A DNA stretch of 4,109 nucleotides from a virus. Its lineage: Duplodnaviria > Heunggongvirae > Uroviricota > Caudoviricetes. Position numbers and translations under genes: made by a program. The notes below the pieces were generated by a model that ran no database searches, was not told where the DNA came from, and was given only the letters and a program-made list of their open reading frames with translations. Shown piece after piece: positions 3,044 through 4,109 of the stretch. How positions within the stretch are numbered: the first letter of the stretch is position 1; every line of letters starts with the position of its first letter. Location: IMG/VR virus record IMGVR_UViG_2778261176_000018, positions 1-4,109 of that record. One strand, written 5' to 3'.

Positions 3044-3076
3044 AATAACCCGTGTATATACGGGTTATTTTTCTTT
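3044..3076. terminator. rho-independent terminator, probably bidirectional, between convergent transcription units
   Basis: Perfect 9-bp stem ATAACCCGT (3045-3053) / ACGGGTTAT (3060-3068) with a 6-nt loop GTATAT, extendable by an A-T pair (3044/3069), followed on the plus strand by TTTTTCTTT (3068-3076). On the minus strand the same hairpin is followed by a weaker U-rich tract (TTATTCATGGTTTTAGTTT). The hairpin overlaps the stop codon of the minus-strand CDS at 3065-3067. Confidence 0.65.
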
Positions 3077-3613
3077 ATCGCCATCTTTTCTTGATTTGAA
3101 CAATCCACTAACAACGAAGCCAACCAAACCAACAATGCTAATTGTACTTGTACCTAGTAATGCAACGATTGCTTCAACTGGAGGCTTTCCTTCATGAGCA
3201 ATAAGAAACGATACAAACATTACGGCTACAAATAAGCACCACCACGACATAAAACAAACCGTGAATGATGCCATTTTTGTCCGAAGTTCATTGTCTATTT
3301 CTTTACCAGTTGCGTCAGCTATCTTATCGCGTACTTGTGATTTGAGCATATCAAGCTGAGCTTGAAGACTGTTCATTCTGTGCTGCTGCATAAACTCATG
3401 CAATGCACCTGTATTAGAACCAAACTCTTCTTCCTCCAGAATAGCTTTATTTTCTGAAGAAGAATCATCATCGCTCTCATGATTAGACGGCTCAAATGCA
3501 GATTTAAAAACCTGTTCTTGACTGTCAGTATAGTTTAAGGATGCTTCAGAGCGACCATTTTCAACACCTGCAGCCGCTCCGATAAGTTTATAGATATCTG
3601 AATTGCGAGACAT
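3065..3613 (-). CDS. membrane protein with two C-terminal transmembrane helices; candidate toxin/abortive-infection effector
   Basis: ATG (complement of 3611-3613) with AGGGA 4 nt upstream on the minus strand; stop TAA (complement of 3065-3067). 182 aa with a soluble N-terminal part including an acidic/Ser-rich stretch (ESDDDSSSENKAILEEEEF) and a coiled-coil-like segment, then two hydrophobic segments of about 23 and 25 aa (FTVCFMSWWCLFVAVMFVSFLIA and AIVALLGTSTISIVGLVGFVVSGLF) separated by a short loop, ending in a basic tail KSRKDGDKEK. Lies 22 nt downstream of the Panacea-like gene on the same strand. Confidence 0.6.
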   Translation of the reverse strand: MSRNSDIYKLIGAAAGVENGRSEASLNYTDSQEQVFKSAFEPSNHESDDDSSSENKAILEEEEFGSNTGALHEFMQQHRMNSLQAQLDMLKSQVRDKIADATGKEIDNELRTKMASFTVCFMSWWCLFVAVMFVSFLIAHEGKPPVEAIVALLGTSTISIVGLVGFVVSGLFKSRKDGDKEK

Positions 3614-3635
3614 GTCATCCCTGAATATTACTTTT

Positions 3636-4109
3636 TCAGAGGCCCTGACATTGCTGTCGGTTATTCAATAAATCATGATAATAAGTCTTGATCGCATCAT
3701 CTGGGATGATTGACGAGCCAATACCATTATAAGTTTGTGACCAAGGCGTACCTGGCATATGAGTTAGAGTTGATAACTCAATTCCATTTTTCGAGCCGTA
3801 AAATTTATAAACAGCCCCTATAATGCTCTCTGCTTGCGGATCCATAGTAACAATGCCACCAAAAGGAGCTACTGCTACATTCGTAACAGGCTTATTCCCA
3901 TAATCTTTGAAAGCATCGTACATTCCGGGAATAACCGGACCGTACTTCCACGCAGAGACACATTCGTTGAGCAAAGGCTTACCTGTTAATGCTAAATAGT
4001 AACCATGGGCAATATAAGTAAGCTTCTGCAGTTGCATGTGGGTCAGAGGATTATGATGTTGGTTTCCCAACGTTATGAATTTATTGGCTATTTGTACCGG
4101 GCTGTACAT
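3636..4109 (-). CDS. Panacea (DUF4065)-domain protein, GepA/SocA-like; candidate antitoxin
   Basis: ATG at the window edge (complement of 4107-4109), stop TGA (complement of 3636-3638), 157 aa. The N-terminal region MYSPVQIANKFI...MQLQKLTYIAHGYYLALTGKPLLNECVSAWKYGPVIPGMYDAFKDYG matches the conserved core of DUF4065/Panacea proteins as I recall it (LQKLLYYAQ...WKYGPV.P.VY). Promoter and RBS are outside the window. Confidence 0.65.
   Translation of the reverse strand: MYSPVQIANKFITLGNQHHNPLTHMQLQKLTYIAHGYYLALTGKPLLNECVSAWKYGPVIPGMYDAFKDYGNKPVTNVAVAPFGGIVTMDPQAESIIGAVYKFYGSKNGIELSTLTHMPGTPWSQTYNGIGSSIIPDDAIKTYYHDLLNNRQQCQGL

What the first reader, a model, noticed from the sequence alone, without database searches (positions are those of the whole stretch)
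3065..4109. Convergent two-gene module: Panacea-domain protein plus two-TM membrane protein, a candidate toxin-antitoxin / abortive-infection system
Two minus-strand genes 22 nt apart sit opposite to the prophage operon. The upstream gene has a Panacea/DUF4065-like core; the downstream one is a 182-aa protein with two C-terminal transmembrane helices. Panacea-domain proteins are described as antitoxins (PanA) paired with very diverse toxins, many of them membrane-targeting. An antitoxin-first pair with a small membrane protein, placed as a moron beside a prophage recombination module, is the arrangement expected for a phage-carried TA or defence system. I do not recognise this particular membrane partner as a characterised toxin family.
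Basis: partly seen in the sequence, partly recalled or inferred. Interest (0 to 1): 0.85.

Follow-up and report, generated by a model that had tools for sequence, protein, structure and literature searches.

The report
Known E. coli prophage PanAT toxin-antitoxin

Summary
Two minus-strand genes lie 22 nt apart. The upstream one (3636-4109, 157 aa) matches Pfam SocA_Panacea at 66 bits against a cutoff of 25.7. The downstream one (3065-3613, 182 aa) has an acidic N-terminal part and two C-terminal hydrophobic helices.

The pair is already characterised. Kurata et al. 2022 (PNAS, PMC8832971) validated "PanA-Esc.col/PanT-Esc.col" from E. coli STEC O31: PanA WP_000287252.1, toxin WP_000019185.1, toxin cluster T3, antitoxin first, 22 nt spacing. 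The toxin depolarises and permeabilises the membrane, and only the cognate PanA rescues, without ClpXP or Lon.

WP_000287252.1 is annotated at this same locus in 11 of 11 complete E. coli genomes I inspected. It is 153/157 identical to the window protein. The partner toxin alleles there are 168-179/182 identical. I did not retrieve the exact sequence of WP_000019185.1. Phage PhiR47_1 (PV340566.1) already labels the genes PanT and PanA.

What I add is context. The cassette sits at the end of a dusA-integrated lambdoid prophage, with its own consensus promoter just outside the window. In 9 of 9 distant loci the pair stays together. Several of those lie in the P2 gpA-portal defence hotspot, next to a retron-type reverse transcriptase or CBASS genes.

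Anti-phage defence is plausible but untested. Interest is low.

The parts
3636..4109 (-). panA: stand-alone Panacea-domain antitoxin, 157 aa, with no extra N-terminal domain
   Evidence: PF13274 at 66.2 bits against a cutoff of 25.7, residues 27-123. GPV motif at residues 57-59. 153/157 identical to WP_000287252.1, the validated PanA-Esc.col. phrog_1281 at E 5e-48.
3614..3635 (-). 22-nt panA-panT spacer holding a weak Shine-Dalgarno sequence (AGGGA) 4 nt before the panT ATG
   Evidence: Sequence. The spacer is identical in L006. The length of 22 nt equals the spacing recorded for the STEC O31 pair in the Kurata dataset.
3065..3613 (-). panT: 182-aa membrane toxin of cluster T3, with an acidic and variable N-terminal part and a conserved two-helix membrane hairpin
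   Evidence: phrog_13343 full length at E 1.9e-111, with no Pfam or NCBIfam family. 168-179/182 identical to the alleles found next to WP_000287252.1, including WP_000019186.1 and WP_000019187.1. Invariant IDNxLR...WCxFVA...ALLGTSTISIVGLVGFVVSGLFK core across 34 homologues.
3197..3271 (-). codons for predicted transmembrane helix 1 (about residues 115-139)
   Evidence: Kyte-Doolittle 19-residue windows centred on residues 123-133 score above 1.6. AlphaFold2 helix 53-139, pLDDT about 80-85 over residues 111-140.
3098..3175 (-). codons for predicted transmembrane helix 2 (about residues 147-172), nearly invariant and rich in small residues
   Evidence: Kyte-Doolittle windows centred on residues 154-163 score above 1.6. 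AlphaFold2 helix 146-179. 19 of the 31 invariant alignment columns lie in residues 151-173.
3044..3069 (.). inverted repeat AATAACCCGT-N6-ACGGGTTATT that overlaps the panT stop codon; a likely two-way terminator between panT and the convergent PrtN-like gene
   Evidence: Terminator-like on both strands. RNA fold of -12.7 kcal/mol, z-score -3.07 against shuffles. The T-run is good on the plus strand and weaker on the minus strand.

Best explanation
This is an allele of the E. coli PanA/PanT type II toxin-antitoxin pair (PanA-Esc.col/PanT-Esc.col, toxin cluster T3 of Kurata et al. 2022). It is carried as a self-contained cassette at the end of a lambdoid prophage integrated into dusA.

How it works:
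- Transcription: panA and panT are probably co-transcribed from a constitutive sigma-70 promoter about 160 nt upstream of panA, just outside the window. Transcription probably ends at the hairpin at 3044-3069. This is inferred from sequence.
- Toxin: PanT inserts its two C-terminal helices into the inner membrane and probably oligomerises into a large pore that collapses membrane potential and lets SYTOX Green in. The phenotype was shown for the STEC O31 allele. Oligomerisation is inferred.
- Antitoxin: the stand-alone Panacea protein PanA blocks PanT. Cognate-specific neutralisation that needs neither ClpXP nor Lon was shown in the paper's assays. Direct binding was shown for five other PanAT pairs but not for this one. 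Contact with the N-terminal, pre-membrane part of PanT is inferred by analogy with the Bartonella PanT:PanA model.
- Biological role: not established. The most likely role is abortive infection or exclusion of competing phages when PanA is inactivated or depleted. Stabilisation of the prophage is the alternative.
For: - Panacea domain above the Pfam threshold, with the GPV motif.
- Kurata Table 1 and dataset: E. coli STEC O31, PanA WP_000287252.1, toxin WP_000019185.1, 'Membrane', cluster T3, order A|T, spacing 22, scored as a TA.
- WP_000287252.1 is annotated at this locus in 11 of 11 inspected genomes. In all 11 a 182-185 aa allele of this toxin follows it, and a PrtN-like gene converges on it. 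The dusA 5' fragment is seen in all four whose fetched stretch reaches that far.
- Window PanA is 153/157 identical to WP_000287252.1. The window toxin is 168-181/182 identical to every full-length allele seen.
- Phage PV340566.1 annotates the genes as PanT and PanA.
- Published phenotypes: depolarisation plus SYTOX permeability; ClpXP and Lon not needed; cognate-only rescue in a 10x10 matrix.
- Both genes are under purifying selection.
- In 9 of 9 distant loci (37-64% toxin identity in the six measured) a Panacea gene lies 25-44 nt upstream on the same strand. The two proteins diverge together.
- Perfect TTGACA-16-TATAAT promoter upstream in L001, and a terminator hairpin downstream.
- For a defence role: divergent copies lie in the P2 gpA-portal hotspot, next to an RVT_1 reverse transcriptase, DncV-like plus Cap15 CBASS genes, or a DUF4145 gene. 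That hotspot is described in Rousset et al. 2022, whose supplementary table lists 'DUF4065 + hypothetical' among its arrangements.
Against: - I could not retrieve the sequence of WP_000019185.1 itself. STEC O31 is a draft genome and is not in the complete-genome set. Identity of the validated toxin with this gene rests on the shared PanA accession, the same gene order, the same 22-nt spacing and the adjacent accession numbers WP_000019186/7.
- The window alleles differ from the tested ones: 4 residues in the PanA C-terminal third and probably 3-14 in PanT, including transmembrane helix 1. Their activity is inferred, not shown.
- A PanA-PanT complex was not demonstrated for this pair; the pull-downs used five other pairs.
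- No defence phenotype is published in the searched library, and neither protein matches a PADLOC model.
- The AlphaFold2 model of PanT has low confidence: mean pLDDT 60.9, pTM 0.28.
Confidence: 0.9

Rival explanations
1. The cassette is chiefly a prophage-encoded abortive-infection or superinfection-exclusion system. An incoming phage inactivates, titrates or stops the resupply of PanA. PanT is freed, permeabilises the membrane and kills the cell before the invader completes its cycle. This is a claim about biological role and is compatible with the TA mechanism.
For: - Moron-like build: own consensus promoter and terminator, and opposite orientation to the phage operon.
- GC of about 0.37-0.43 in windows lying wholly within the finding region, against 0.45-0.51 over window 1-2850.
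- Divergent copies lie in the P2 gpA-portal defence hotspot beside a reverse transcriptase, CBASS genes or DUF4145.
- In Providencia the pair sits between the antiterminator gene and the lysis genes, next to a type I-like methylase and specificity subunit.
- Ernits et al. [quoted passage not shown]
Against: - No phage-challenge data for this or any T3 PanAT in the searched literature.
- Neither protein matches a PADLOC model.
- Rousset et al. list the arrangement but do not report it among their validated systems.
- Neighbourhood association is suggestive only.
Confidence: 0.4
2. The cassette is an addiction module that stabilises the prophage. Cells that lose or excise the prophage stop making labile PanA and are killed by the remaining PanT.
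For: - It lies at the very end of the prophage, about 300 nt from the dusA junction and next to the excisionase-like PrtN gene.
- The promoter looks constitutive.
- Addiction is the classical role of TA pairs on mobile elements, and Kurata et al. discuss it.
Against: - Neutralisation does not depend on Lon or ClpXP, and no differential instability of PanA has been shown.
- The same cassette occurs at quite different positions in unrelated phages, for example among tail-related genes in L013 (a contig from a sequencing run, not a deposited phage), in a late-region moron site and in the P2 hotspot. That fits a portable accessory function better than att-linked stabilisation.
Confidence: 0.2
3. 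PanA acts like SocA of Caulobacter (type VI): a proteolytic adaptor that hands the toxin to ClpXP rather than an inhibitor that binds and blocks it.
For: Same domain family. The NCBIfam SocA_antitoxin model matches at E 1.5e-28.
Against: - The NCBIfam score is 99.7 bits against the equivalog cutoff of 190.
- Kurata et al. report that neutralisation by PanA persists in strains lacking ClpXP and Lon.
- The partner is a membrane protein unrelated to SocB.
Confidence: 0.04
4. The membrane protein is an accessory holin-like lysis factor of the phage, and the Panacea protein is its antiholin.
For: The two-helix membrane protein forms large pores, and it is carried by phages.
Against: - No holin family matches in Pfam or PHROGs.
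- It lies far from the lysis genes, in the opposite orientation, with a promoter that looks constitutive and would be active in the lysogen.
- In Providencia it coexists with a normal holin and lysozyme pair.
Confidence: 0.03

Closest known systems
PanA-Esc.col / PanT-Esc.col of E. coli STEC O31 (WP_000287252.1 / WP_000019185.1; Kurata et al. 2022, PNAS 119:e2102212119)
   Same: Same chromosomal and prophage locus, same gene order (antitoxin first) and same 22-nt spacer. PanA is 153/157 identical. The toxin is the same length and at least 92% identical to every allele found beside that PanA. Same architecture: charged N-terminal part plus two C-terminal transmembrane helices.
   Different: Allelic differences only. 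PanA has T126A, P136S, D137N and T142A relative to WP_000287252.1. PanT carries the less common C120/W124 arrangement in transmembrane helix 1 and, alone among the alleles seen, N81 where the others have D. The exact sequence of WP_000019185.1 was not available for direct comparison.
Bartonella apis/choladocola PanT (cluster T12 / node D11):PanA
   Same: A stand-alone Panacea antitoxin paired with a toxin that has a charged N-terminal region and C-terminal transmembrane helices. That toxin also causes depolarisation and SYTOX permeability. In the AlphaFold2 model, supported by mutagenesis, Panacea contacts the N-terminal unstructured region and the short helix before the membrane segment.
   Different: A different toxin cluster. 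Kurata et al. say homology with T3 is possible but not detected by their clustering. I did not test it.
SocA/SocB type VI TA of Caulobacter crescentus
   Same: The antitoxin carries the same Panacea/DUF4065 domain.
   Different: SocA is a ClpXP adaptor for the replication inhibitor SocB. Here the toxin is a membrane protein, neutralisation needs neither ClpXP nor Lon, and the NCBIfam SocA equivalog cutoff is not reached.
Defence systems with membrane effectors in the P2 gpA-portal hotspot (Rousset et al. 2022), and small membrane TA toxins such as HokB
   Same: Divergent copies of this cassette occupy that hotspot. The effector logic is the same: a small membrane protein that depolarises the cell.
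   Different: No phage-defence phenotype has been reported for the Panacea plus two-helix cassette. Hok is a type I toxin under RNA control, whereas this pair has a protein antitoxin.

Membership tests
PanA (Panacea/DUF4065-domain antitoxins) | Match to Pfam PF13274 above the gathering score | tested here: met
   66.2 bits against 25.7, E 6.2e-18, profile positions 1-112 of 113
PanA (Panacea/DUF4065-domain antitoxins) | Conserved GPV motif in strand beta2 | tested here: met
   WKYGPVIPG, with GPV at residues 57-59. The motif is also present in the PanA of all seven other loci compared.
PanA (Panacea/DUF4065-domain antitoxins) | Encoded next to a conserved partner gene in a two-gene, TA-like arrangement | tested here: met
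   22-nt gap here. The partner is retained in 11 of 11 E. coli loci and 9 of 9 distant loci.
PanA (Panacea/DUF4065-domain antitoxins) | Neutralises the toxicity of the cognate partner | not testable with these tools
   Published for WP_000287252.1, which is 97% identical. Not tested for this allele.
PanT cluster T3 (PanT-Esc.col) | Sequence homology to WP_000019185.1 | tested here: inconclusive
   That sequence was not retrievable. Indirect support is strong: the same PanA accession sits upstream in 11 genomes, the spacing is the same 22 nt, and alleles WP_000019186.1 and WP_000019187.1 are 168/182 and 170/182 identical to the window protein.
PanT cluster T3 (PanT-Esc.col) | [quoted passage not shown] | tested here: met
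   Residues 1-112 hold 22 D+E and 11 K+R. There are two hydrophobic helices at about 115-139 and 147-172.
PanT cluster T3 (PanT-Esc.col) | Toxic on expression, with membrane depolarisation and permeabilisation | not testable with these tools
   Published for the STEC O31 allele.
SocAB type VI TA | SocA equivalog score, a SocB-type partner and ClpXP-dependent neutralisation | tested here: not met
   NCBIfam NF047745 scores 99.7 bits against a cutoff of 190. The partner is a membrane protein. The literature reports that ClpXP and Lon are not needed.
Catalogued anti-phage defence systems (PADLOC-DB v2) | Match to any defence-system protein model | tested here: not met
   The toxin has no hits. 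PanA has only a spurious hit to REase_I at E 0.021.
Phage holins | Match to a holin family, and a position in the lysis cassette | tested here: not met
   No holin family in Pfam or PHROGs. The pair lies at the att-proximal end of the early-left arm.

The most novel reading that the evidence does not exclude
The most novel reading still open is that this T3 PanAT cassette is a portable anti-phage abortive-infection module of temperate phages. In that reading the stand-alone Panacea domain is the sensor for a specific phage-encoded trigger, and release of the two-helix pore-former PanT kills the infected lysogen. That would supply the missing biological function and trigger for the Panacea family. 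The cassette's occurrence in the P2 gpA-portal hotspot beside a retron-type reverse transcriptase and CBASS genes is compatible with this but does not show it.
Probability: 0.35. Interest if true: 0.5.

Novelty: already known. Interest (0 to 1): 0.15.

Why it matters
As a discovery it matters little, because the pair and its mode of toxicity are published. Three points have some practical value.

1. The Kurata dataset marks the validated E. coli locus as "NotPhage". It is in fact the terminal moron of a dusA-integrated lambdoid prophage, and it is present in three deposited phage genomes, including an Stx2k-converting phage.
2. RefSeq still calls the toxin a "hypothetical protein" in all 12 complete E. 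coli genomes inspected, so the annotation could be transferred.
3. Divergent copies lie in a recognised defence hotspot. That gives a concrete and inexpensive reason to test PanAT for phage defence and to look for the trigger that Panacea is proposed to sense.

Tried and rejected
- I tried to find the exact validated toxin accession WP_000019185.1. I inspected 11 complete genomes that carry WP_000287252.1, ran two cluster look-ups and searched the paper's supplements for sequence strings. Only neighbouring alleles turned up: WP_000019186.1, WP_000019187.1, WP_000089360.1, WP_021563277.1, WP_192291974.1, WP_059274466.1 and WP_370602600.1.
- Pfam and NCBIfam gave the toxin only sub-threshold hits to assorted membrane-protein families (DUF677, DUF2207_C, DUF2975, IRK), which I take as composition effects of the membrane segment.
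- The PDB sequence search found no relative of either protein.
- AlphaFold2 on PanT with 34 homologues gave a low-confidence model (pLDDT 60.9). It is usable for secondary structure only, so I ran no fold search.
- A PanA:PanT complex prediction was not possible with the single-chain tool.
- The genome-contig scan confirmed only 3 of 98 pattern matches, so co-occurrence is counted on a small sample: 9 distant loci plus the E. coli ones.
- Literature searches for a defence phenotype of PanAT or DUF4065 systems found nothing beyond the two papers from the same research group.
- I considered and rejected three other readings: chance ORFs (purifying selection and conserved synteny argue against), a holin/antiholin pair, and a SocA-type protease adaptor.
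Full report
**1. What is in the sequence**

The window carries two minus-strand ORFs: 3636-4109 (157 aa) and 3065-3613 (182 aa). They are separated by 22 nt. Windows lying wholly within the finding region have a GC fraction of about 0.37-0.43, against 0.45-0.51 over window 1-2850.

The plus-strand genes that converge on the pair are:
- a weak (sub-threshold) methyltransferase match (315-833);
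- an Ea22-like gene (830-1429);
- a DUF551 gene (1584-2150);
- an Rv2179c-like 3'-5' exonuclease (2147-2722);
- a PrtN/excisionase-like gene (2732-3031).

Between the PrtN-like gene and the 182-aa ORF lies a 10-bp-stem inverted repeat at 3044-3069. It overlaps the stop codon of the 182-aa ORF. It folds at -12.7 kcal/mol with a z-score of -3.07 against shuffles, and it scores as terminator-like on both strands.

**2. Identity of the two proteins**

*The 157-aa protein.*
- It matches Pfam SocA_Panacea (PF13274) over almost the whole profile, at 66.2 bits against a gathering score of 25.7.
- It has the GPV motif at residues 57-59.
- It has no additional N-terminal domain.
- The NCBIfam SocA equivalog model scores 99.7 bits, well below its cutoff of 190.

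*The 182-aa protein.*
- It matches no curated family. Its only strong hit is the unannotated phrog_13343, full length, at E 1.9e-111.
- It has no PADLOC hits and no PDB relative by sequence.
- Residues 1-112 are acidic, with 22 D+E against 11 K+R.
- Two hydrophobic segments follow, at about 115-139 and 147-172.
- AlphaFold2 with 34 homologues gives a short helix at 4-14, a disordered stretch at 17-54, one long helix at 53-139 and a second helix at 146-179. Mean pLDDT is only 60.9, and about 71-85 across the hairpin.
- Across 34 homologues the N-terminal half is highly variable. The segment G103-x-x-IDNxLR...FMxxWCxFVA and the second helix ALLGTSTISIVGLVGFVVSGLFK are invariant or nearly so.

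**3. The pair is already known**

Kurata et al. 2022 (PMC8832971) list among their nine experimentally verified PanAT pairs [quoted passage not shown]. Their dataset records toxin cluster T3, order A|T, an intergenic distance of 22 and the result "TA".

In RefSeq, WP_000287252.1 is annotated at exactly this locus in all 11 complete E. coli genomes I opened that carry that allele. In each:
- a 182-aa allele of the window's second gene follows it (185 aa in one genome);
- a PrtN-like gene converges on the pair;
- in the four genomes whose fetched stretch reaches that far, a 5' fragment of dusA lies beyond panA.

The window PanA differs from WP_000287252.1 at 4 of 157 residues. The window toxin is identical to its counterpart in NZ_AP045174.1 and is 168-181/182 identical to every full-length allele seen. 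The 22-nt spacer is identical in L006. Phage PhiR47_1 (PV340566.1) already annotates the two genes as "PanT toxin" and "PanA antitoxin".

I could not retrieve the sequence of WP_000019185.1 itself. Equating it with this gene rests on the shared PanA accession, the same order and spacing, and the adjacent accessions WP_000019186.1 and WP_000019187.1 at the same position. I regard this as very strong but indirect.

**4. Mechanism: what is shown and what is inferred**

*Shown in the literature for the STEC O31 allele.*
- PanT is toxic in E. coli.
- Only the cognate PanA rescues, in a 10x10 cross-neutralisation matrix.
- The paper reports that ClpXP and Lon are not necessary for neutralisation by PanA.
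- Transcription, translation and replication all shut down together.
- Cells lose DiSC3(5) signal and take up SYTOX Green, which the authors interpret as formation of a large pore.

*Not shown for this pair.* Physical PanA-PanT binding was not demonstrated; the pull-downs used five other pairs.

*Inferred by analogy.* In the Bartonella PanT:PanA model, supported by mutagenesis, the stand-alone Panacea domain grips the N-terminal unstructured region and the short helix before the membrane segment. The same may hold here.

*Inferred from sequence here.*
- The two genes are probably co-transcribed from a perfect consensus sigma-70 promoter, TTGACA-16-TATAAT, about 160 nt upstream of the panA ATG.
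- A GAGGAGGG Shine-Dalgarno sequence lies before panA. Both elements sit outside the window, within the phage DNA.
- Transcription probably ends at the 3044-3069 hairpin.
- The invariant second helix, rich in small residues, suggests helix-helix packing in an oligomeric pore. This is inference only.
- Both genes are under purifying selection. dN/dS is 0.17-0.25 for panT. For panA it is 0.09-0.13 in the six comparisons that have enough synonymous change.

**5. Genomic context**

In NZ_AP045174.1 the cassette is the last feature of a lambdoid prophage. About 300 nt beyond panA lies a 5' fragment of dusA, followed by host genes including zur, dinF and lexA.

The deposited phage genomes phiSTEC1575-Stx2k, 1720a-02 and PhiR47_1 carry the cassette at the corresponding end. 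The Kurata dataset nevertheless flags the locus as "NotPhage".

The cassette is present in 79 of 5,426 complete E. coli genomes, always once and always on the chromosome.

**6. Co-occurrence and mobility**

For six distant toxin homologues (37-64% identity), a PF13274 gene lies immediately upstream on the same strand, 25-44 nt away. The same is true in Erwinia, Pectobacterium and Buttiauxella loci from an independent scan. PanA and PanT identities to the window pair fall together: 72/64, 60/42, 60/44, 44/42, 50/37 and 44/40 percent. This is what a co-inherited cassette should show.

The insertion sites differ widely:
- next to smpB and a DinI gene in Klebsiella;
- among tail-related genes (tail terminator, Dit-like) in L013, a contig from a sequencing run with no organism named;
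- between the antiterminator gene and the lysis genes in Providencia, beside a type I-like methylase and specificity subunit;
- in four loci, between the P2-type replication gene gpA and the portal gene.

The last site is the defence hotspot described by Rousset et al. 2022. There the cassette sits beside an RVT_1 reverse transcriptase, DncV-like plus Cap15 CBASS genes, or a DUF4145 gene. Their supplementary table lists "DUF4065 + hypothetical" among the hotspot arrangements, but the main text never mentions DUF4065.

**7. Biological role**

The role is the only open question. The evidence for abortive infection or exclusion is the moron-like build, the low GC, the portability and the company the cassette keeps. 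No phage-challenge result exists in the searched literature, and neither protein matches a PADLOC model.

Prophage addiction is the main alternative. It is favoured by the att-proximal position and weakened by the variety of positions in other phages. A SocA-type adaptor mechanism and a holin/antiholin role are each contradicted by specific evidence.

**8. Verdict**

The finding is a known, experimentally validated toxin-antitoxin pair, so novelty is "already known" and interest is low. The residual value lies in three things: correcting the locus to a prophage context, transferring the annotation, and the testable lead that this cassette is a phage-carried defence module.

Noticed in passing
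L001 9268-9295 (minus strand), about 160-185 nt beyond the window's right end: A perfect 12/12 sigma-70 consensus promoter (TTGACA, 16 nt, TATAAT) lies upstream of panA inside the phage DNA, and a GAGGAGGG Shine-Dalgarno sequence lies just before the ATG. The window is cut exactly at the ATG, so both are missing from it.
   Followed up: partly
window 3197-3271 (PanT residues 120 and 124, transmembrane helix 1): Among E. coli alleles a Trp and a Cys exchange places one helical turn apart. The window allele has C120/W124. Most alleles that sit next to WP_000287252.1 have W120/C124, usually together with A130V, V131A and V134T. PanA stays invariant across those alleles. This may be compensatory change within the membrane helix.
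   Followed up: partly
L001 9416-9520; window right end: The prophage is integrated at the 5' end of dusA, leaving a 105-nt dusA fragment about 300 nt beyond panA. The Kurata dataset flags the validated locus as 'NotPhage', although it is the terminal gene pair of this prophage and is present in three deposited phage genomes, one of them Stx2k-converting.
   Followed up: partly
L016 3964-5724; L018 4051-5962; L020 3853-4551: Divergent copies of the PanA plus two-helix cassette lie in the P2-type gpA-portal hotspot, directly beside an RVT_1 reverse transcriptase, DncV-like plus Cap15 CBASS genes, or a DUF4145 gene. A DinI-family gene precedes the cassette in L016, L017, L020 and L021, and also in the Klebsiella locus L011.
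   Followed up: partly
window 315-833, 830-1429, 1584-2150, 2147-2722: Two gene junctions of the plus-strand operon overlap by 4 nt (833/830 and 2150/2147). The 172-aa product has only a sub-threshold methyltransferase match in Pfam (17.9 bits against 21.2), but RefSeq annotates its homologues as class I SAM-dependent methyltransferase. This accessory region is mosaic: only 2 of 5,426 genomes match at least 80% of the whole window.
   Followed up: no
L001 9111-9125 (upstream of window 4109): An in-frame ATG five codons upstream of the annotated panA start would give a 162-aa product, and one database entry (P0019, 162 aa) has that length. The position of the Shine-Dalgarno sequence favours the 157-aa start that RefSeq annotates for the validated accession.
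   Followed up: partly
window 3371-3373 (PanT residue 81): The window allele has N81, whereas every other full-length allele compared has D81.
   Followed up: no
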